From positions 1,188,801 to 1,252,800 of the forward strand of contig MU004184.1 in the NCBI GenBank assembly GCA_010093605.1: a DNA stretch of 64,000 nt, read 5' to 3'. Positions within the stretch are counted from its first letter, which is position 1; each line of letters opens with the position of its first letter. This DNA is from Lophium mytilinum. Taxonomy: Eukaryota. The position numbers and the translations under genes were made by a program. Positions 1 to 62,159 of this stretch are shown here, piece by piece. The notes beneath the pieces are model-generated. The model was given only the letters and a program-made list of their open reading frames with translations. It was not told the DNA's origin and made no database searches.

Positions 1-1236
1 TATAAGATTATAAAAAGCTTCTATTTCTACTATTATAGAGAAATATATTGCCTCTTTAGAAACTTCTTTTATAACTATTAATATTGCGTGCACCTTTATA
101 GTTATAGGCTAGTATTAATAGTCTAGTATTAATAAATTATAGTAAAGAGTTAGTATTATTATTTAGAATTATAGATAGAGAAGTCTCTAGTAGCTTTAGT
201 ATATTAGTATAAGGGTTAATTACTATTAAAGGCCGTATTTAAAGAGATCTATAGTAGACTAATAGATTTAATTAGTAGAAATATTAACTAATATTAGAGG
301 ATTTAACTTAAGTTACTTTAACTAGGCACGATCTAGAAATTAATATTTAGCCTAACTATATTAATAAGATATTTACTATTAAAGATAATATAATTATAGT
401 ATTTCCGGGTTTAGGTTTAGTATTTTTAGCTATTAGAGTGGCAAACTAGAACTATAATCTCGTTCGCGGGTTAGTTCTAGCGAGATAGGATAAGAAGTAT
501 TATAGAAGGGTGGCCTTTTTCCAATTATATAGTAAGTAGAGTGCTACTATAATAGTAGACTAGCGAGTAGAAGCTATATATATTAAGTAGTATAAACTAT
601 TATAATAAATTTATTCTAGAATCTATAACCTTTTAGTTAATAATATATCTAGAATATAAGTTAAATTAAAGGCTTTTAAATAATACTATATTTAGCACTA
701 AATAAAAGGGTTTATAGGATTAAGAGGCTATTAAAATTATAAATTTTAGTGGGGTATAAAGGCCTATTATATAGTAAATAAACTATATAACCTAGTATAG
801 CTACTTAAAAAGAGACTTTATATAAGATTACTTTGCAGGTTAATATTTATCGCTGTTTTTAAGTTAAATCTACCCTTAGCATACACCCGACTAGGCTAGT
901 TAATAGTAGACAGCCTTTGCGAATAGTTGTCCTATGTAAGAGGCTGTCCTATGTAAGTGGACAGCCTCTGCTTAAATTTTTAGACCTAGTAGACATTCAT
1001 CTGCCTTAGCGGTCCTGGAAATGGGACCCTGCGTGAGAGGGTGAACCGCAACCCGGAAGGGGGGAGTCTATTTTCAGGCCCTTAAGCGGAACAGGGACTA
1101 TAAAATCTAAAAATAGTTATAGAGTAATTAGAAAGTACTTAAGGATAAATAACACCGTGTGGAATGTAAACCATAAAAATTACAGGTGTAAAAAAGGTTT
1201 AATAAAGTCAATATTGTCGCATTTGTACAATAAGTC
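1..1236. mobile_element. RIP-degraded transposable element relic(s), continuing off the left edge
   Basis: Very AT-rich, dense in TA/TAG/TAA and visibly poor in CA/TG, with no ORFs. It ends abruptly inside a HET coding sequence. Family not identifiable. Confidence 0.75.
928..970. repeat. Nested direct and inverted repeat, possible DNA-transposon terminal repeat
   Basis: TGTCCTATGTAAG at 928-940 and 945-957; perfect 11-bp inverted pair AGAGGCTGTCC (939-949) / GGACAGCCTCT (959-969). Confidence 0.55.
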
Positions 1237-2619
1237 TGTATCAACAAAATAAGCAGCTCCGAGTTATCGGAGTCCATAAATTCGATGTATCAATGGTATA
1301 AGAACGCCAGCGATCGTTTTGTGTACTTGAGCGATGTGACGACCGAGATTGAGGAGCCGTGGCGCGCGGGTGTGGAGAACGTTGAACACGAGTCACTACC
1401 GTCGGTCTATCAACAGTTTGCCGAAAGCCAGTGGTTCACAAGAGGTTGGACTCTTCAAGAGCTTATTGCACCGAAGCGCGTCCTTTTCTACGATACAAAG
1501 TGGCAGTCCCTCGGCAGGAAAGAGATATTGCTTGATCCGCTTGCCCAGATAACAGGGGTGGACTTCTATGTTCTAGAAGGGATACGCGACCCTTCATCCG
1601 TGAGCGTGGCGAAGAGGATGTCTTGGGCATCAGCAAGAGAGACGGCTAGAGAGGAGGATATGGCGTACTGTCTGCTCGGCCTATTCGATGTCAACATGCC
1701 AATGCTCTATGGGGAAGGAAAGAAGGCGTTCGTGAGATTACAAGAAGAGATCTTGAAGACCTCCGATGATCACTCCATATTCGCATGGACTATGTTTTCC
1801 CCGGAGGACGAGTACAGTTTCAATGGGCTTTTGGCGGAGTCACCAGCTGCCTTCAGCAAATCGTCTTCCATTGAATCCCTTGATCACACGAATATCGGCG
1901 ATTACGGAGATCACGAGTATAGCATGACGAACAAGGGATTGAAAATTACCCTTCAATTGATACCGTGGGGCGTAGACGTATATCTTGCTCCTTTGCGGTG
2001 CCACGGGGGGGGATCTTCCGGGCCTTTGTACATATTCTTGTTCGATCTAAAGGCGCCCCGAGACCGATTCTTAAGGATGAGGGTACTAGGAGAGAGTTGG
2101 ACAAGCCTAAGGGACGCGACGAAGGCCGAGGAGAAGAGGACCGGCGAGATCAGGAGGGACTTTTGGAAGATCGAGGAGAAAACTATATACATCCCAAGAA
2201 AAGGTGGCAACTCAGGTCGATTCTCCTTCTACGGATTCTGGATTCGAAGCATCAGAAATGCTGGCATCATCGAAGTGTATCCGGAAGAGCGCTGGGATTC
2301 CACAGAAGATATTTTGAAAATGCCGCCAGGTCCAGGAATCGTTACCGGGGTGTTACTCTGTGGCGACGAGCATGTAAAATTCACTGTCCTTCTAGGATTC
2401 AGAGAAGACTCCCAGCCATTTATCTGCATACGGCGAGCGGATAGTGCCGATCCGAGATTCGCATTCGAGAATGTTCCCGAATATGAGCCCAAGAGATGGA
2501 GCATGGTCACGTATCTTGACTACTACCGCAAGATCGCTGCAGAAGGAGTTATCGAAAGGCCCTCGAACGATGGCAATCATTTCAGATATGCCGTTGATAT
2601 CAGGTTGGTCTCGATTTGA
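1237..2619 (+). pseudogene. HET-domain (heterokaryon incompatibility) protein, 5'-truncated
   Basis: Frame reads CINKISSSELSESINSMYQWY...WFTRGWTLQELIAP...SVAKRMSWASARETAREEDMAYCLLGLFDVNMPMLYGEGKKAFVRLQEEILK, which are HET hallmarks. The N-terminal YAILSHTW/WIDTC segment is absent and there is an in-frame TAA at 1231-1233. Confidence 0.8.
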
Positions 2620-51643: not shown

Positions 51644-52121
51644 TGCGTGTTTAATAAGGTAGTTGTGATCGTCGCGGTGGCAGGAAGGAAGGATGTTCAA
51701 TGATTGTTTGGAGCTCTGGAAATCTTTTTGAATAGCTTGCAGGGGGTTGTGTCCATTAGCGCACTTTGGGAAGAACGAGCAAGATCAAGGCGGCTGAACT
51801 GGATCCTCGGGTTGAGCTAAAACCCTGGGTGAGAACTCGATGACTGAGCGGTTCCCTAAGGTAATAGCAGTATTGATCACAAGTTCCTTGTTCATAATGC
51901 CTTTCACTCATCCCTGCCCCGCTGTAGATGCCCCGCCGTGACCTTCCGCGTGCCCAGAACGACGTCACCGGCGTCATATATATCTAATGGCCTTCCAAAG
52001 CAGCACACCTTCCAAGCCTCTCCCCGAACTCATCAACGACTACTACGCCCAGAAACCAAGCTTCTCCTCCCTCACCACCACATATCCAGACGAGAACTCA
52101 AAACCACAATCTACTTCCATC

Positions 52122-52504
52122 ATGCCTGTCCACCCCGCTGAAGAGAACGCCACTGGGAGTACGTCAAGCTCTTTAACAAAGCCCGAGTGACCTCGGCATA
52201 CTGAGTGGAAATGAGGAACTAACATCATCTCTAGGTATCACCGATCAGGTCGCTAAGGATTCATCCGACTCCACAGCATCCACACATGAGAGTCATAATG
52301 TGGATACTGGTGTAAACCCAGGAGGCGTGCATGCCAACGCCCACAAAGCCAACCCGGTGAGTGAGGCTTGACCTTCTTGTCAATCGTTGCCCATTGTACA
52401 AATGCTGACTAGCAGTTTGGCAGGGACCTGTCATCGCTGAGAACATTGGAAAGCCGGAGAGCAAGGAGGCGTTGAAGAAGAGAGCCGAAGAGCTGAACCA
52501 GTAG
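52122..52504 (+). CDS. Small hydrophilic hypothetical protein, 3 exons (start could be 51987)
   Basis: Two GT-AG introns with branch sites join MPVHPAEENATG..ITDQVAKD...HANAHKANP|GPVIAENIGKPESKEALKKRAEELNQ*. Confidence 0.65.
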
Positions 52505-52792: not shown

Positions 52793-53567
52793 TTATAGGC
52801 CAGCTAGAGCTCCGACAACCGCCATTCCGCCCAGAGCCCACGCAGCCATTGTCTGGTGTGGCGCCATGCCAGTCGAAGTCGCGGTCGCGGATGCCGCAGT
52901 TGCAGAACCGGAGGCAGACTTGGAAGAAACAGCACCAGTGGCTTCTGGGTTGGTCGTGTTCGCAAGAGGGGATCCTGAGACAGTCGAGACCTTGACTCCA
53001 GTGTTGTTCTTGCAGTTGGTGTTATAGTCGGTAGTGGAGAGCGCAGTCTTGGTAAGAGTGATATCGGCACACTGTAGAAGCCGTCAACGCAAGCTCCTCT
53101 AACACAGTCGCACATAATGTGACTCGAAAAGCTATCTCCCGGATTCTGGGAGAAAAGAATCTTACCTGGTAGAGTCCGCCATCTGGGTCGCCGTTCGACA
53201 CGACCTGGATAGTCGCCTCCTGGCCCTCAGTGAAATTGACGCCCTCGGGCAGGCTCACTTGACCCATGCAGAAGTTGCCGAGGCCCTCTTCTTCGAAGGT
53301 GGGACGCAGGATGATGTTGTAGTTGACGCCAGGGTCGCTGCCGAGGGAGAGCAGCACCATCACGTCGGTCTGCGTGTGGTGCATGTCTAGCTGGATGGGG
53401 GCGCCGACTGCGGGCCACGAGGTTCGGGTCTTGCTGACAGTATCGAAGCCACCGCAGGGGAAGTTGACGGCCTTGTCATCGTCGAAGCCGCGTGCCGGAG
53501 GCCAAGTGAGGAGGAAATGGGCGGAGGTGATGGGGAGAAGAGCGAGGAGAGCGAGGTTGGACAACAT
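52793..53567 (-). CDS. GPI-anchored copper acquisition factor Bim1-like (LPMO-like X325 family)
   Basis: Signal peptide ends at SA|H, giving a mature N-terminal His. HFLLTWPPARGFDDD..FPCGG, second His in DMHH, Asp in GDPDGGLYQCADI, Ser/Thr/Ala stalk and hydrophobic GPI tail; intron 53165-53072. Confidence 0.9.
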
Positions 53568-53892
53568 GGTGCAATTGAGGTGTGAATTGACTTGTTGGTG
53601 TTGTTACGGAAAGTAGTTCAAGATTGGAAAGAATTGAAGCAGGAAAAGAGGTTCAAGGGGATTAGAGGAGGAAGTTGCGAGAAAGGCCAAGAGAAGGGTT
53701 GCGTTCCTGCAGGCAACCCGAGCACCTTATGAATGAATGCACGGCAGGGCCTTGGGATTCCGGTGGCTGGATACACGGCCACAATAAGCTCACAATGAAC
53801 GCCAGGTCAAATGTGCGGCACTAAAAGAACGGAGCTGCTACGGGTCTGGGTAAGCGGCTATCAAAGGGTGCCATTTGTCTCGACGATGCAGG

Positions 53893-54296
53893 TGAGCAAG
53901 TTTCTACGGCTTGAGCACATTTGAAGCTCGAGCCTTTTAGGGGGCCTAGCTCGCGTCCTGCATCTACCCCTGCTGGCCCACGATCAGCACCAGCAACGTC
54001 GGAACGCAGAATTCACAGGACACACCAAAAATGGACCGTGCGCAACACTTCATCACGCTTCCACAACGCAGTACAGTCATGGTAACAACAATGGACAAAT
54101 AGCTTGGTTGACCACTTGCGTGGGTCGTCCGACAATTTTAGGATAGTTCTGGGTCTGTGGTGTGGAGAGACTTGTCAGTGAGAGTGCTAACTGAGTGGGC
54201 CGAAGTCGACGGCCCCACCAAATGCCCCGCCACCAAGGTTGTCTTGCGGCCGAGCGACTGTCATCCCAAGCTTTGTTACAGGATTCATTGTGCTCA
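53893..54296. promoter_or_regulatory. Putative Mac1/Cuf1 copper-response elements upstream of the Bim1-like gene
   Basis: TGAGCAAG 53893-53900, TGAGCACA 53912-53919 and TGTGCTCA 54289-54296, matching the GCTCA-core CuRE consensus. Confidence 0.55.
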
Positions 54297-54519
54297 ATAG
54301 TAGGCAACTACTGTCGTTGAAGTGAGGTATATGAGGTGAGTTCTATTGCTAGGGTAGTGTGCCGCTCCGCACTGGAATAGCTATCTCGAGGAACCCAAAC
54401 TCCTCCGATCCCAGCCATGATATTGTCACCTTCCACGAATGGACCGCAAACGCCGAGCCCGATGCAAACAATATTAATAACTCCCAAACAACTGTCCAGA
54501 CGGCTAATAATATCCAGCA

Positions 54520-55101
54520 TCAGTTCCCAGGTGCTCCGTAGCGGCCAAATGCCAGCTCTCCGAGAAAGACACCCCCGAGCACTGAAAGAAAATAGCCCAC
54601 GTTGAAGGTCATGACAGCCAGCATGCTGTGGACTATTAGCGATACGTTACAAAGAAAGACATCTGCCAAAACTTACAGGAGATAGCCCACTCCAGCTATG
54701 CAAGTGTATATCAATGCTCTCGGGAGGTCGACACTGAATCGCCATGGCTGGATGTGCTGGATTGGACTCTGCACAATCATGACATGCTCTTCCACACCGT
54801 TTGCTGATATAACCGCTGTTTTGGAGTCGGCATCCGAACTGATGCGCTCGGCGATAGGTGTCTTGTCTGCGACTACGACGTATCGGCGCTTCATGGCAGA
54901 CTCCAGCCATTTGTGCTCCAGGAAGTGCAGCAGCTTGAAGCTGCCTCGATACAGGGCCGCAAACAGAATGAGGAAGATGCAGGTACCCGCATAGGCTCCG
55001 GTTGATTTGGGTGACCATTGCTCAGAGTAGAGAGGCGTCGACGAAGAGGTGAAGAAGGTCATGACCATCTCGCTCGCCGGCATCATTCCAGACATGTCCA
55101 T
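54520..55101 (-). CDS. Ctr-family copper transporter
   Basis: Met-rich N-terminus MDMSGMMPASEMVMTFF, TPLYSEQWSP, YAGTCIFL, PWRFSVDLPRA, YLLMLAVMTFNVGYF (MxxxM) and GVFLG (GxxxG); intron 54676-54626. Confidence 0.95.
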
Positions 55102-55996
55102 ATTTGCGGTATTGGTGGCTACTACTGTGATGGTGTTGGGGTTTGCTTTTGAGTGTCTTCGAAGTTGTCCTCTGGAGTCTTTCTGGGGAGTGACGAGGGA
55201 GCGCACGCGATGGGTTTTGGCTGCCAGGCGAGGGTCTGACGCGCGAGTTTAGTACGAGCTGTTATCGTCCTGTGTGTGAAGGATAGACAGGCGCTTTGGT
55301 GCGAGCAGAATTGAGAGCAATGGTGCTACGGGGGTAGTAAGAGAGATGTGTGGGACGCACAGAGTGTGTCACGGCAGATTTGGAATGCGGGAAGCTGCAA
55401 GTACTACCCTTGCTCGGGCCCCACGGCACGCTGTGGGCAGTGTGGCCCGACAAGCTTATTCTATCGCGTTGGATTGAGCTTGTCGAGCTTGCAGTGGTCG
55501 GGTTGTCGTTCATCGGGTAGGTGAATGTCACGTGGTGAGAGGTATTGAGCAAGTTCTTTTGCCCCTGATTGGCGGATTTGCCTTGATTCTCCGAACGCCA
55601 CCACACAAAGCGCTAGGGACGGGCTTGTATCAACTGCATGCCACCAGATCATGACAATGCGCCGATGCACTCGTCGAACCGGCAACCCGAATTAGAAGCA
55701 GGCGTGCCCATCTAAGCTTTCCCGTGTGTGCGGGCTCGCGGCACATATCATGTACATGCCTGGCGGGAACGCTTCTGGCACTTCACATCACTTGCCCCTC
55801 GTCCTCACACGCCTTCGTTTCGCGCCGTGACACTGACACCCCTACTATCGCCGTTGGATTATCCATGGATGGCATAGCTGGCTAGACGTCTACTCCCTCT
55901 TCCCTCGCACTTGAGTTGATCAAGGCCTCGAAACTCTCCAAGAGCTTCTGGCCATACTTTTGATTTTCCGCATTTCCACCCTCAAAATTATCCAAG
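55102..55996. promoter_or_regulatory. Bidirectional promoter shared by Ctr and metalloreductase, with CuRE-like motifs
   Basis: Head-to-head ATGs 895 bp apart; TGAGCAAGTT 55546-55555 and CGAGCAGA 55302-55309. Confidence 0.55.
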
Positions 55997-58167
55997 ATGG
56001 ACATGGATATGACAATGGGGAGCATGTCCATGGGGGGACTGCCAAAGCTGCTCGACTTCCCATCCTTTTATTGGGCTGTTGTTGGAACGGCCATTGGGAT
56101 AGCAACTTTTGTCAACTTCTTTAATTATATCATATACCGTCAGAGGTAAGTCACCTCCCTCCTAGATGACAAAAAATTGTAATTGACAATCAAAGGCTAT
56201 CAGCAGCTAGCAATGGCAACGCAAGACCTGCAAAGCCGACATCTTTCCTCGCTAGGACGTATGCTACTATCACTGCCATAACGCGAGAAGCGTCGAATGC
56301 TTCAGTACGAATCCCCTCCAAAGGACGCGTCTTTAAGTTACCAACGGTTGGCCGGACCAGCTTGGTAGTCGGCAATGTTGTTCTTCTTGTCGTTCTCTCA
56401 TTTTACGGACTCGATGTCAAAGACCGGTGGAAGTATGAAGATATTGGCTACCGGACCGGATTTGTGAACATGGCCCAGCTCCCGTTGATTTTCTTGCTCG
56501 CTGGAAAGAACAACATCATCGGATTCCTCTCTGGGATTAGCCACGAGAGACTGAACTGGTTGCACCGCTGGGCTGCCCGATGTCTTCTCTTCACCACCAC
56601 GATCCACATGGGCTACTTCTTTGCAGATTGGGCGCCTTACGATTACATCATCCCCCAGATCAAATCAGCACCTTTGGTGAAGGAGGGCGTGATTGCTTGG
56701 GCTGTGCTGCTTTGGATGGTCGTCAGCTCCATGACGCCGATCCGCGGGTTGTACTATGAAGTGTTTGTCATCCAGCATCTCGCGTCGTTCGCTGTGTTCC
56801 TCTACTTTGTGTACAAACACACACCTGCAGAGGTCCACGTTTACATCTGGATACCCATTGGAGTCTTCGTCTTCGACCGCGTGACACGGGGTTCATCGGT
56901 AATATACACAAACCTATCCCTCTTCCACCCTAAGCAACGGAAAGCTGGGCAGATGTCTGGACTTTGGGCGTGCAAGGCTGAGTTCACGCCTCTTGCACAC
57001 GATACTACAAGGATTACAATCAACAACCCGCCAATTAGCTGGTCCCCTGGCCAGCACGTTTTCCTGTCCTGTCACTCTATCGTTCCACTCCAAAGTCATC
57101 CATTTACCGTCGCCTCGATTCCAGAGGACGGCAAGATGGAGTTCCTTGTAAAGGCAGAGAAAGGCGGTACAAAACGATTCTTCAAGCATGCGGAGAAGTT
57201 GAGCGGGTTACCTAGTGCGTCTCCAAATGCCAAGCCAAAGGTAAAGAGCGTTGCTATCGAAGGTCCGTATGGCTGCCTTCGACCTCTACGGCAATTCGAC
57301 AGCGTCGTGCTACTAGCCGGTAGCACCGGAGCAACATTCACCATCCCACTGCTTCGGGACATTGTCCAGGGTTGGAAGGAAGTCTCAACATCGTCCAATC
57401 AGAAACAGTCGATATTCCGTAAACCAAAGGGCGCTGTAACACGGCACATCCGCTTTGTGTGGGTCGTCAAGTCTCGGGGCCAGCTTGGCTGGTTCGCCGA
57501 CCAGCTCTCGGGCGTCTTCGAAGATATCGAGAACCTCAAAGCCCAAGTCAAGGGGTTGGACGTTGATATGACTATATACGTCACTTGCGACAACTCGTTC
57601 ACAGAAGAACACAAATCGCTCTTGTCAACAGTGAGAGCTCCGGTCAAAACGAACTACCGGGGTGCCGTGGAGATGGTGGAGGGCGACGGAGACGAGAAGT
57701 CCGGATTGAAATACGACGAGCAAAACGGTGCACGGGAAGTCGGCTCAGAAACCTCGTCCCTCAGGAAGCCTACACAGCAGACATCATGTGGACCAAACGG
57801 CGAATGTTGCTGCAGAGACACCGTCGAAAGCGAAGACATAATCGGCCCCGCGACCTGCTGCTGTTGCTCATCACCCCCTGCCACGACTGATCGCACACAA
57901 TCGGCGGTCTCGTCAATTACCAAGGGGTCAGCACAGCAATTGCTCCATCCCAGCATCGCCGTCATCAGCGGTCGGCCGCAGTGCCACAGTGTAATTCGCA
58001 AGATGCTAGAGCAGGCGCTGGGCGAGAGCGCGGTAGTCGTTTGCGGGCCACAAGGCCTTGTAGCCGACGTCAAGCAGAGTGTAGTGGCCTTGAGCGATGA
58101 GCGGGCGGTGCACAAGGGTACGGGGGCACAGGGAATCTATCTGCACACGGAGTCCTTTGGATATTGA
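55997..58167 (+). CDS. Ferric/cupric reductase (FRE family)
   Basis: Exon 1 MDMDMTMGSMSM..., intron 56146-56195, heme His in LHRWAAR, IHMG, IQH and YKH, FAD motif HPFTVAS, NADPH motifs EGPYG, LLAGSTGATF, WVVK, VVVCGPQGL and HTESFGY. Confidence 0.95.
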
Positions 58168-58933: not shown

Positions 58934-60133
58934 ATGTCTGCTCGAACAGTCCTAGTGATTGGAGGTAGCTGGGCCGGTATCAGCACGAGCCATTACGCTC
59001 TCAAGCACATCCTACCGACACTCCCCAAGGACGATAACTTCACCTACAATGTCACGATGGTCACTCCCTCGGAGGAGTTCTACTGGCGAGTTGCAGGTCC
59101 CCGTGCCTGTCTCTCCGGGGAGGCTCTTCCTGAGAGCAAGTACCTGTACCCCATCAAGAAGGAGTTTGCCAAGTATGGCGACAGCTTCAAATTTGTTAAG
59201 GGTACAGCTACGGCACTCGACACCGCCGCCCGCACTGTCACCGTCTCCACTGGCGGCGCTCCCGAATCCATCCCATACTACGCTCTGATCCTCGCCGTGG
59301 GCACCCACACTCCAGCCCCCTTCCTATCCCTCCAGACCGACTCCGACGCTGTGAAGACCGACCTCGACAACTTCCGCAAGGCGCTCCCGAACGCAAAGAC
59401 TATCGTAATTGGAGGTGGTGGGCCTGTCGGCGTCGAGGTCGCCGGCGAGATTGCGGAGTATCTCAACGGCACCGCAGGCTGGTTTGCGCCGGCCAAGCCA
59501 GCTCACCCCAAGGCCCAACTCACCCTTGTCTGCGCCGACAAGAAGCTGCTGCCCGTCCTCCGGGAAGCTCTCGCCAAGACGGCCGAGAAGTATCTCAATA
59601 GGGTTGGCTGTGATGTTGTCTACGGCACCCGCGTTGAGTCCACAACTCAGACTGCCGACGGCAAAACTACTGTCTCTCTCAGCGGCGGCAAGACCCTCGA
59701 AACGGACCTATACATCGACGCCACCGGTGCACGCCCGAACACCGGCTTCCTCCCGAAAACCATCCTCAATGAAAAGGGCTACGTCGATAGCGACAAGACC
59801 CTGCGCGTCACCGCTGCCGGCGAGCGTGTCTACGTCCTCGGCGACTGTGGTTCCTACACCCGTGGCGGCATCATAGATATGTGGGACGCGCTTCCGGTTG
59901 TGGTGGCCAACCTGAAGAAAGATCTCAGCGGCGCTGAAGTACCGGATAAGGAGTACAAGGCCAACCTCACAGAGACCCAGGTCGTACCAGTTGGCAAGAG
60001 CAAAGGCGTTGGTGCTTTCGCCGGCTGGAAGCTCCCCTCGATGATGGTGGTCATGATCAAGGGTAAGGACTATATGGCAAACTTGGCGCCCCCAATTGTC
60101 AGCGGCAAGCAGTGGGACAAGGCTTTCAAGTGA
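58934..60133 (+). CDS. AMID/AIF/FSP1-like FAD-dependent pyridine nucleotide-disulfide oxidoreductase
   Basis: VIGGSWAG (FAD), VIGGGGPVGVEVAGE (NAD), ATGARPNTGFLP, VYVLGD and IKGKDY; intronless. Confidence 0.9.
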   Translation: MSARTVLVIGGSWAGISTSHYALKHILPTLPKDDNFTYNVTMVTPSEEFYWRVAGPRACLSGEALPESKYLYPIKKEFAKYGDSFKFVKGTATALDTAARTVTVSTGGAPESIPYYALILAVGTHTPAPFLSLQTDSDAVKTDLDNFRKALPNAKTIVIGGGGPVGVEVAGEIAEYLNGTAGWFAPAKPAHPKAQLTLVCADKKLLPVLREALAKTAEKYLNRVGCDVVYGTRVESTTQTADGKTTVSLSGGKTLETDLYIDATGARPNTGFLPKTILNEKGYVDSDKTLRVTAAGERVYVLGDCGSYTRGGIIDMWDALPVVVANLKKDLSGAEVPDKEYKANLTETQVVPVGKSKGVGAFAGWKLPSMMVVMIKGKDYMANLAPPIVSGKQWDKAFK

Positions 60134-61238: not shown

Positions 61239-62159
61239 ATGGATCAGGCCAAGCTGGCGCGGATGCAGGCTTCGGTGCGAATTGGTGAGTTTAAGCCCAA
61301 GGTTCCATCATCTTGATGGAGTTCCAACGCTGTTCTGTGAGCTTTTGGAGATGAACAATACTAATGCGAGTGACTAGGGTAAGCAACTCTTCCACTCCTC
61401 GAAACTTCGTCTCGAATACCTCCGAATCTCCGACTCCGACTCTACATATCCCTTCGGGACCCTCGAAAATCTGCGGTTGCGGTTCTGGGTTCTATAATGG
61501 AGCGAAGAGGTTGAAGCAGCTTACGAAGTGAAGAGCACGAATGGCTAACGAATCCGGCGTATAGTGGAAAAGGCACCCCGCGCCGGAAGGTTAAGAAGGT
61601 CCACAAGAGCGCTGGCACCGACGACAAGAAGCTGCAGACGAGCTTGAAAAAGCTGAATGTGCAGCCAATTCAGGCGATTGAGGAGGTCAACATGTTCAAA
61701 AGCGACGGGAATGTCATCCACTTTTCTGCGCCAAAGGGTTAGTTTGATTCTTTCCCTACATCTGCTCAGGAAATCTCTAGGGCTGGATGAGCTACAAAAG
61801 GGAGATGTTGGCGAGAGCCGCGGGTCAATGTCTTGAATCCCATCCATGTCGACATACGACGGGCGCTTGCAGAATCTAGATTGCTAACTATCTTCACCAC
61901 AGTCCATGCGTCCGTCCCCGCAAACACCTTCGCCATCTACGGCCAAGGCGAAGACAAGGAGCTCACGGAGCTCGTCCCCGGTATCCTCAACCAATTGGGG
62001 CCGGATTCGCTGGCGTCGCTGCGCAAGCTCGCCGAGAGCTACCAGAGCATGCAGAAGGAGAAGGGCGAGGACGGCGAGAAGGGTGAAGATGATGATGATG
62101 ACGACATCCCGGAGCTGGTCGAGGGCGACAACTTCGAGTCGAAGGGGGAGGTCGAGTAG
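61239..62159 (+). CDS. EGD1: Nascent polypeptide-associated complex beta subunit, with a 1-nt exon at 61378
   Basis: [30 protein letters not shown]...IEEVNMFK...[10 protein letters not shown]...[15 protein letters not shown]; introns 61285-61377, 61379-61564 and 61738-61902. Confidence 0.96.

What the first reader, a model, noticed from the sequence alone, without database searches (positions are those of the whole stretch)
52793..58167. Clustered copper-acquisition system: Bim1/X325 surface Cu-binder + Ctr importer + cupric reductase
Seen: three adjacent intact genes, with Ctr and FRE head-to-head and the His-brace GPI protein directly downstream of Ctr on the same strand. Known: FRE reduces Cu(II), Ctr imports Cu(I), and Cryptococcus Bim1 binds Cu(II) and acts with Ctr1. 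Inference: a co-regulated capture-reduce-import module analogous to the Fet3/Ftr1 iron pair. I know of no description of all three as a physical cluster; it would give genomic evidence that ascomycete X325 proteins serve Cu uptake and name their reductase partner.
Basis: partly seen in the sequence, partly recalled or inferred. Interest (0 to 1): 0.82.

Follow-up and report, generated by a model that had tools for sequence, protein, structure and literature searches.

The report
Conserved fungal three-gene copper-uptake cluster
Three neighbouring fungal genes (a copper-binding surface protein, a copper channel and a metal reductase) stay together across many sac fungi with a shared copper-starvation switch; the same trio was already seen and deleted in Aspergillus fumigatus in 2008, before the surface protein's family was known to bind copper.

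Summary
In detail: three intact genes, BIM1-like/X325 (226 aa, -), Ctr (176 aa, -) and FRE (706 aa, +, head-to-head with Ctr); two introns are spliced in a public RNA-type run. The linkage is conserved: same order and orientation in 20 of 22 metagenome loci long enough to judge (13 of 15 dereplicated), across Dothideomycete-, Eurotiales- and Helotiales-like fungi, while other neighbours shuffle. Both promoters carry the Fusarium Mac1 site (13 of 14 each; control 3 of 14), with no iron-type GATAA excess. The Ctr is CtrA2/Ctr1-type, the type Cryptococcus Bim1 works with. Best reading: a Mac1-controlled capture-reduce-import module; direct copper hand-over is inferred. The novelty claim fails in part: the counterpart Afu6g02800-02810-02820 was described as adjacent, co-induced and triple-deleted in 2008 (PMC2481287), Ctr-FRE pairs are published, and this scan noted the cluster in two other genomes. 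Not found in my searches: the GPI gene named as Bim1-like within the trio, the Mac1 footprint, the reductase's Met-rich N-terminus and Cys-rich insert (14 of 14, 11 of 11), and a second ascomycete X325 clade that holds all four named Sordariomycete sequences.

The parts
52793..53071 (-). BIM1-like/X325 gene, exon 2: last strand of the domain, Ser/Thr-rich stalk, hydrophobic C-terminal tail (GPI-signal-like), stop
   Evidence: joint 53071-53166
53072..53165 (-). intron of the BIM1-like gene, 94 nt, GT..AG
   Evidence: skipped in a contig of run X1
53166..53567 (-). BIM1-like/X325 gene, exon 1: signal peptide (1-16), His17 (mature His1), His64, Asp127/Asp129 region
   Evidence: PF20238 E 8e-28; LaX325 6IBH E 1.5e-20 by family profile; fold match E 3.6e-10; column counts
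53893..53902 (-). Mac1-type site (AAC-T-TGCTCA), about 330 nt upstream of the BIM1-like start
   Evidence: consensus DHNTGCTCA from Fusarium ChIP-seq
53912..53921 (-). second Mac1-type site upstream of the BIM1-like gene
54287..54296 (+). third, weaker Mac1-type site between Ctr and the BIM1-like gene
54520..54625 (-). Ctr gene, exon 2: MxxxM (143-147), GxxxG (160-164), stop
54626..54676 (-). intron of the Ctr gene, 51 nt, GT..AG (predicted; not covered by run X1)
54677..55101 (-). Ctr gene, exon 1: Met-rich N-terminus (6 Met in 14 residues), TM1, loop, start of TM2; CtrA2/Ctr1a/TCU-3 type
   Evidence: PF04145 E 1e-21
55102..55996 (.). shared divergent promoter of Ctr and FRE, 895 nt; no GATAA
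55546..55555 (-). Mac1-type site (AAC-T-TGCTCA) in the middle of the divergent promoter, about 450 nt from each start
55997..56145 (+). FRE gene, exon 1: Met-rich N-terminal segment (6 Met in 24 residues) and first membrane helix
56146..56195 (+). intron of the FRE gene, 50 nt, GT..AG
   Evidence: skipped in a contig of run X1
56196..58167 (+). FRE gene, exon 2: ferric-reductase membrane domain (His173, 187, 244, 258), FAD domain (HPFT at 351), NADPH domain with a Cys-rich insert (8 Cys, about 581-607), stop
   Evidence: PF01794, PF08022, PF08030

Best explanation
A Mac1-controlled copper-uptake module inherited as a unit in Pezizomycotina. Under copper shortage Mac1 binds TGCTCA sites in the Ctr/FRE divergent promoter and in the BIM1-like gene's own promoter and switches on all three (sites shown; binding inferred from Fusarium). 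The GPI-type X325 protein binds Cu(II) at the cell surface with a His brace (residues and fold shown; binding inferred from LaX325/Bim1). The FRE passes electrons from NADPH through FAD and two hemes to make Cu(I) (domains and four His shown; substrate inferred). Cu(I) is held by Met-rich N-termini on both the reductase and the Ctr and enters through the Ctr's MxxxM pore (motifs shown; route inferred). I put the co-regulated copper-uptake module at about 0.75 and a direct role of the X325 protein in feeding this Ctr at about 0.5.
For: Same order and strands in 20 of 22 judgeable loci, 13 of 15 dereplicated groups; Ctr and FRE fixed in 7 of 8 long dereplicated loci while NAC (4 of 8), AIF-like (4 of 8) and RRP43 (2 of 8) shift place and strand; consecutive GenBank accessions for BIM1-like and Ctr in 5 of 5 named genomes checked, consecutive locus tags in 2 more. 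DHNTGCTCA in 13 of 14 divergent promoters (17 sites, shuffle mean 6.0, max 15) and 13 of 14 BIM-upstream regions (24 sites, mean 5.2, max 11) against 3 of 14 downstream controls; TGCTCA ranks first of 2080 hexamers, 26 of 28 regions against 13.8 expected; the site is kept upstream of the two unlinked BIM1-like genes, and in 12 of 14 non-trio loci against 66 of 289 background tiles. The Ctr is CtrA2/Ctr1-type, and Cryptococcus Bim1 acts with Ctr1. A. fumigatus trio co-induced with ctrC and Mn-SOD. P. destructans BLP2 and the Fre with the next locus tag rise under BCS and fall under Cu. Reductase N-terminus has 4 or more Met+His in 14 of 14.
Against: The link is not obligatory: 2 loci with 10 kb upstream lack Ctr and FRE (L027, L031), one has Ctr convergent (L023); Aulographum has the two genes on different contigs; Fusarium ctr1a is unclustered and A. 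nidulans has no CtrA2 hit. NAC, AIF-like and RRP43 genes also stay in the neighbourhood, so some linkage is plain ancestry. Loci are related and not independent, and the scan pattern picks this clade only. The A. fumigatus triple mutant was not reported on copper-poor medium in the section read; it resisted neutrophils normally. Cbi1/Bim1 also has cell-wall roles and PdBLP2 protein is abundant under all copper levels. No copper-response data exist here for this organism.
Confidence: 0.7

Rival explanations
1. All three genes are Mac1 targets, but the X325 protein does not feed the Ctr: it buffers copper in the wall, or keeps wall integrity during copper shortage, and is clustered only because it shares the regulator.
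For: Cryptococcus cbi1 mutants have wall defects and altered high-copper resistance not shared by ctr1; PdBLP2 is among the most abundant proteins at all copper levels; the Mac1 site stays when the gene is unlinked; each gene has its own site, so clustering is not needed for co-regulation.
Against: Bim1 is reported to interact with Ctr1 and to act in uptake; the clustered transporter is of that type; fixed adjacency across three or more classes.
Confidence: 0.18
2. The trio is a leftover of conserved gene order; the X325 gene simply travels with a Ctr-FRE pair, as NAC-beta, the AIF-like gene and RRP43 do.
For: Those housekeeping neighbours are retained nearby in 4, 4 and 2 of 8 long loci; BIM1-like sits beside NAC-beta in many Pleosporales (fused gene models) and in L027, L031.
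Against: Only the trio keeps order, strand and spacing (7 of 8); the X325 gene has its own conserved Mac1-type site (13 of 14); co-induction in A. fumigatus.
Confidence: 0.05
3. The X325 protein is a developmental or cell-fusion factor (HAM-7/SymB/IcFBR1-like) and copper is only its cofactor.
For: Ascomycete X325 members affect growth, fusion and fruiting in Podospora, Epichloe and Isaria (passages).
Against: Those species are Sordariomycetes (recalled); all 4 named Sordariomycete sequences fall in a separate clade (15 rows, support 100/99) apart from the clustered clade. I could not place HAM-7 or SymB themselves.
Confidence: 0.04
4. The reductase serves iron uptake and the cluster is an iron-linked unit.
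For: FRE family domains do not tell Fe from Cu; high-affinity iron uptake needs copper (established).
Against: No GATAA in either window promoter and no excess across 14 loci (14 v 11.2; 13 v 14.4); the A. fumigatus triple mutant grew normally on iron-limited medium; the P. destructans Fre beside BLP2 follows copper.
Confidence: 0.03

Closest known systems
Aspergillus fumigatus Afu6g02800 (putative GPI protein) - Afu6g02810 (ctrA2) - Afu6g02820 (metalloreductase); Sugui et al. 2008, PMC2481287
   Same: Same three kinds of gene in the same tag order; adjacent, co-induced, deleted together. 02800 is Bim1-like: a P. destructans BLP is labelled by it and one of its qPCR primers maps into BIM1-like genes of four loci with 2 mismatches in 19. 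CtrA2 as printed aligns by eye along the whole window Ctr.
   Different: The 2008 paper did not know the GPI protein's family, read the trio as oxidative-stress or iron/copper related, and in the section read did not test copper-poor medium. Strands in A. fumigatus and orthology of the reductase were not shown here (oligo test inconclusive).
Cryptococcus neoformans Bim1/Cbi1 - Ctr1
   Same: GPI-anchored X325-family protein induced by copper shortage, acting with a Ctr1-type importer (passages).
   Different: No clustering or reductase partner is mentioned in the passages seen; the primary paper could not be read.
Head-to-head Ctr-FRE pairs: A. nidulans ctrA-freC (110 of 127 species), F. oxysporum ctr3-fre9 and ctr1b-fre12
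   Same: Divergent Ctr and FRE genes sharing a Mac1 promoter; ctr3 plus fre9 both needed to rescue mac1.
   Different: ctrA-freC and ctr3-fre9 use the CtrC/Ctr3 type, a different paralog pair from the window's; the third gene of the Fusarium cluster is a SAM-domain protein; neither main text mentions Bim1 or GPI.
Pseudogymnoascus destructans BLP2 (VC83_03095) and Fre VC83_03096
   Same: Ascomycete Bim1-like gene and reductase with consecutive tags, both up under BCS and down under Cu.
   Different: No Ctr between them (CTR1a is VC83_00191); the passages seen do not remark on the adjacency; clade and strand of BLP2 not tested.
Laetisaria arvalis LaX325 (PDB 6IBH/6IBI/6IBJ)
   Same: Fold and His-brace residues (E 1.5e-20 by profile; Foldseek E 3.6e-10, 32% identity).
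   Different: Basidiomycete protein; the acidic ligand aligns ambiguously (Asp127 or Asp129 here).

Membership tests
X325 / Bim1-like (PF20238) | Family profile above cut-off | tested here: met
   98 bits v cut-off 27
X325 / Bim1-like (PF20238) | His as first residue after the signal peptide | tested here: met
   His17 follows a hydrophobic leader, aligns with residue 1 of 6IBH, His in 52 of 52; cleavage site inferred, no predictor run
X325 / Bim1-like (PF20238) | Second His of the brace | tested here: met
   His64, 51 of 52; aligned with the internal His of 6IBH
X325 / Bim1-like (PF20238) | Asp as fourth copper ligand | tested here: inconclusive
   Asp127 is Asp in 45 and His in 6 of 52; Asp129 only 19 of 52, yet the profile alignment puts the LaX325 Asp nearer 129; no coordinates available
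X325 / Bim1-like (PF20238) | LPMO-like beta-sandwich fold | tested here: met
   model pLDDT over 90 for 135 residues; four best Foldseek hits are LaX325
X325 / Bim1-like (PF20238) | C-terminal GPI anchor | tested here: inconclusive
   Ser/Thr-rich stalk (42%) and hydrophobic last 19 residues; no GPI predictor
X325 / Bim1-like (PF20238) | Binds Cu(II); no polysaccharide cleavage | not testable with these tools
   needs EPR/ITC and assays
Ctr copper importer, CtrA2/Ctr1a type | PF04145, Met-rich N-terminus, MxxxM and GxxxG | tested here: met
   78.6 bits v 25.3; Met 1,3,6,7,12,14; MxxxM 143-147; GxxxG 160 (motifs recalled as defining, MxxxM also)
Ctr copper importer, CtrA2/Ctr1a type | Closer to AfCtrA2 than to CtrC/Ctr3 | tested here: met
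   CtrA2 probe peptide matches 121 of 122 family members, CtrC oligos at most 14 of 122 (a lopsided test); printed CtrA2/Ctr1a/TCU3 alignment matches the window Ctr by eye; no tree with CtrC built
FRE metalloreductase | Membrane, FAD and NADPH domains; four heme His; HPFT | tested here: met
   His173/187/244/258 and HPFT at 351 (roles recalled)
FRE metalloreductase | Cu(II) rather than Fe(III) as substrate | not testable with these tools
   indirect only: promoter sites, Met-rich N-terminus
Mac1 regulon | DHNTGCTCA site in the promoter | tested here: met
   1 site in the divergent promoter, 3 upstream of the X325 gene; conserved 13 of 14 each
Mac1 regulon | Mac1-dependent induction by copper shortage | not testable with these tools
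   only one run held, as contigs, condition unknown
A. fumigatus Afu6g02800-02820 cluster | Bim1-like, CtrA2 and reductase genes adjacent in that order | tested here: met
A. fumigatus Afu6g02800-02820 cluster | Reductase orthologous to Afu6g02820 (Fre10 group) | tested here: inconclusive
   oligo peptides gave 0 to 1 of 12 matches for either A. fumigatus reductase
ctrA-freC / ctr3-fre9 pair | Ctr of the CtrC/Ctr3 type | tested here: not met
   window Ctr is CtrA2 type; AnCtrA has no significant similarity to AfCtrA2

The most novel reading that the evidence does not exclude
The X325 protein and this reductase are a dedicated pair: Cu(II) on the His brace is reduced by the FRE, whose Ctr-like Met-rich ectodomain catches the Cu(I) and relays it to the Ctr, while its cytosolic Cys cluster senses imported copper and throttles the reductase. 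The pair can outlast the Ctr (P. destructans 03095/03096). Ascomycete X325 proteins split into this Mac1-linked uptake clade and a second clade that would hold the developmental members, which would explain the conflicting functions reported for the family.
Probability: 0.3. Interest if true: 0.72.

Novelty: new member of a known kind. Interest (0 to 1): 0.45.

Why it matters
What X325/Bim1-like proteins do outside Cryptococcus is open. A trio kept in order across several ascomycete classes, with a Mac1 site before the X325 gene, points to copper uptake for one defined clade, names its Ctr type and its reductase, and shows that a triple-deletion strain has existed since 2008 whose menadione sensitivity could be a copper (Cu/Zn-SOD) defect. 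The cluster itself is not new; the reading of it is a useful, testable addition.

Tried and rejected
No whole genome held for the window. Complex prediction of the X325 domain with a Ctr trimer: no verdict, score 0.00, alignments not used; neither for nor against. No RNA holder on record; the one run X1 is RNA by guess and held as contigs, so it gives splicing only, not level or condition. My first idea, that this is the Fusarium ctr3/fre9/FOXG_07771 cluster, was rejected: FOXG_07771 is listed as a SAM-domain protein and the Ctr type differs. AN3210, AN3207, AN0771, AN0774, AN0775 do not follow copper in A. nidulans data; AN0772 is absent from the table. Identity of FOXG_02393 (divergent from fre10) could not be found. 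Yeast-type TTTGCTCA, CCAAT and GATAA motifs show no excess. ESM Atlas only repeated PF20238 at scores under 0.9. HAM-7, SymB and PaX325 could not be placed on the tree. Horizontal transfer: the X325 tree broadly follows taxonomy (quick tree, 80), no formal test. Garcia-Santamarina 2020 not held; Labourel 2020 not read. Look-alike stretches in other scanned windows: none; a second word search: none.


Full report
Observation. The three genes are there as described. Spliced models give a 226-aa BIM1-like protein (53567-53166, 53071-52793, minus), a 176-aa Ctr (55101-54677, 54625-54520, minus) and a 706-aa FRE (55997-56145, 56196-58167, plus), each above its Pfam cut-off. Ctr and FRE share an 895-nt divergent promoter; the BIM1-like gene starts 952 nt after the Ctr stop. 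Contigs of one public run (RNA by the tool's guess) skip exactly the predicted introns of the BIM1-like and FRE genes; the Ctr intron is not covered. A protein identical over exon 1 and of the same length is on record from Lophium mytilinum. No whole genome was held.

The surface protein. A profile of 53 relatives hits only LaX325 among solved chains (E 1.5e-20); an AlphaFold model has LaX325 as its four best matches, true LPMOs far behind. His17 is His in 52 of 52 and His64 in 51 of 52 full-length relatives; Asp127 is Asp in 45 and His in 6. Which Asp is the fourth ligand is unresolved. The tail looks like a GPI signal by composition only.

Synteny. One scan of metagenome contigs gave 49 loci (the pattern selects this clade). 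Of these, 20 hold FRE(-), Ctr(+), BIM(+) in the window's order, 7 hold Ctr then BIM with the contig ending before FRE could show, 1 has Ctr convergent, 2 have 10 kb upstream without Ctr or FRE, and 19 have 1.1 kb or less upstream. So 20 of 22 judgeable loci, or 13 of 15 after grouping at 88% identity. Best matches of trio loci to named proteins span Pleosporales, Gloniales, Dothideales-like, Penicillium and Helotiales (trees). In 8 dereplicated loci with long flanks on both sides, Ctr and FRE are fixed in 7, whereas NAC-beta (4), the AIF-like gene (4) and RRP43 (2) appear on either side and strand. These named-genome checks do not cover the FRE. The loci share ancestry, so the counts are not independent events.

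Regulation. Fusarium Mac1 ChIP-seq gives DHNTGCTCA. It occurs in 13 of 14 divergent promoters (17 sites; 100 shuffles mean 6.0, max 15) and 13 of 14 regions upstream of the BIM1-like gene (24 sites; mean 5.2, max 11), against 3 of 14 downstream controls and 6 of 14 FRE coding regions (13 loci plus the window). Without prior choice, TGCTCA ranks first of 2080 hexamers (26 of 28 regions, 13.8 expected), with an AAC-N flank; the longer form has 14 and 13 sites against 0 in the control. The window has one such site mid-way between Ctr and FRE and three before the BIM1-like gene. The two unlinked BIM1-like genes keep the site, as do 12 of 14 non-trio loci with 400 nt or more upstream, against 66 of 289 background tiles. 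GATAA is absent from both window promoters and not in excess elsewhere.

The Ctr is of the CtrA2/Ctr1a/TCU3 type, not CtrC/Ctr3, which fits Cryptococcus, where Bim1 works with Ctr1. The FRE begins with a short exon coding a Met/His-rich segment before its first membrane helix (4 or more Met+His in 14 of 14) and has a Cys-rich insert in its NADPH domain (5 or more Cys in 11 of 11 with that part on the contig; 3 lacked it). I did not compare these with unrelated FRE paralogs, so their specificity is untested; that the segment faces outside is inferred. A second ascomycete X325 clade (15 rows, 100/99) holds all 4 named Sordariomycete sequences and none of the trio loci; the clustered clade has weaker support (20 rows, 90/90) and the root is unknown (52 of 148 rows kept for the careful tree).

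Mechanism. Shown: genes, motifs, order, promoter sites. Inferred: Mac1 induction under copper shortage; Cu(II) capture on the His brace; reduction by the FRE; Cu(I) relay over Met-rich tails into the Ctr pore. Co-regulated copper module about 0.75; direct feeding by the X325 protein about 0.5. Against: exceptions to linkage, retained housekeeping neighbours, wall roles of Cbi1 and constant abundance of PdBLP2.

What is known. Sugui et al. 2008 (PMC2481287; passages and section 19 read) report Afu6g02800 (putative GPI protein), 02810 and 02820 as adjacent and co-induced by neutrophils; the triple deletion was menadione-sensitive, normal on low iron and against neutrophils. Afu6g02800 belongs to this family: P. 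destructans VC83_07867, later named BLP3, is labelled by it (PMC5810475, passages; a best-hit label, not proof of orthology), and one of its primers maps with 2 mismatches in 19 to the same place in BIM1-like genes of 4 loci and reads a motif found in 11 of 273 BIM1-like and 0 of 121 Ctr proteins. Head-to-head Ctr-FRE pairs under Mac1 are published (PMC7705104, passages and supplement rows; PMC11563359 and its preprint, passages, one section, supplements 3 and 4, files 13-17 not searched). Copper induction of ascomycete Bim1-like genes is published for P. destructans (PMC12113139 passages and supplement rows, file cut when stored; proteome preprint passages, its supplements closed; PMC11509074 passages). 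Also seen as passages: PMC9258870, PMC10952591, PMC7924993, PMC9550227, PMC9695133; PMC8425704 supplement search only. I found no paper naming the trio as Bim1-Ctr-FRE, its conservation or its Mac1 footprint in searches, but the library lacks most subscription papers and I did not see Garcia-Santamarina 2020 or Labourel 2020. This scan noted the same cluster in two other genomes; those notes pointed me to the 2008 paper, which I then checked.

Verdict. Real, conserved and very likely a copper-uptake unit; a new member of a cluster first seen in 2008, with a better-founded reading. Interest 0.45.

Noticed in passing
window 51988-52503 (+): A small gene convergent with the BIM1-like gene, with two introns spliced in run X1 (joints 52158-52235 and 52355-52423); its first exon gave no tblastn hit in the 49 loci.
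   Followed up: partly
window 58934-60133 (+): AIF/AMID-like FAD oxidoreductase (PF07992) right after the FRE; near the cluster in 4 of 8 long loci but at shifting places, and no TGCTCA between 58167 and 58934.
   Followed up: partly
window 61515-62159 (+); proteins P0001, P0002, P0003, P0012, P0013: NAC-beta gene. Public gene models fuse BIM1-like to NAC-beta (4) or Ctr to BIM1-like (1, lacking the Ctr pore helix and the first His): probably annotation errors from adjacency; several BIM1-like fragments are misnamed NAC-beta as a result.
   Followed up: partly
alignment A2, position 127: The likely acidic ligand is His in 6 of 52 relatives (Pyrenophora, Cucurbitaria, Setomelanomma and kin): a possible three-His copper site.
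   Followed up: no
L027:8684-10545 and L031:8596-10558: BIM1-like gene directly after NAC-beta without Ctr or FRE, yet with a Mac1-type site about 310-380 nt upstream.
   Followed up: partly
L023:267-1768: BIM1-like and Ctr genes convergent, the only other arrangement seen.
   Followed up: no
protein P0294: A relative in the Helotiales/Blumeria branch has Asn where the first His should be, so it may have lost the brace.
   Followed up: no
Fusarium fre10 / FOXG_02393: A Mac1-bound divergent pair of the reductase grouped with Afu6g02820 and an uncharacterised gene; removing Ctr from the trio would leave just such a pair, but the gene's identity could not be found.
   Followed up: partly
window 1234-2619 (+) and 1-2000: ORF that looks like a HET-domain protein (recalled resemblance, not scanned) at the edge of an AT-rich stretch (GC 0.37).
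   Followed up: no
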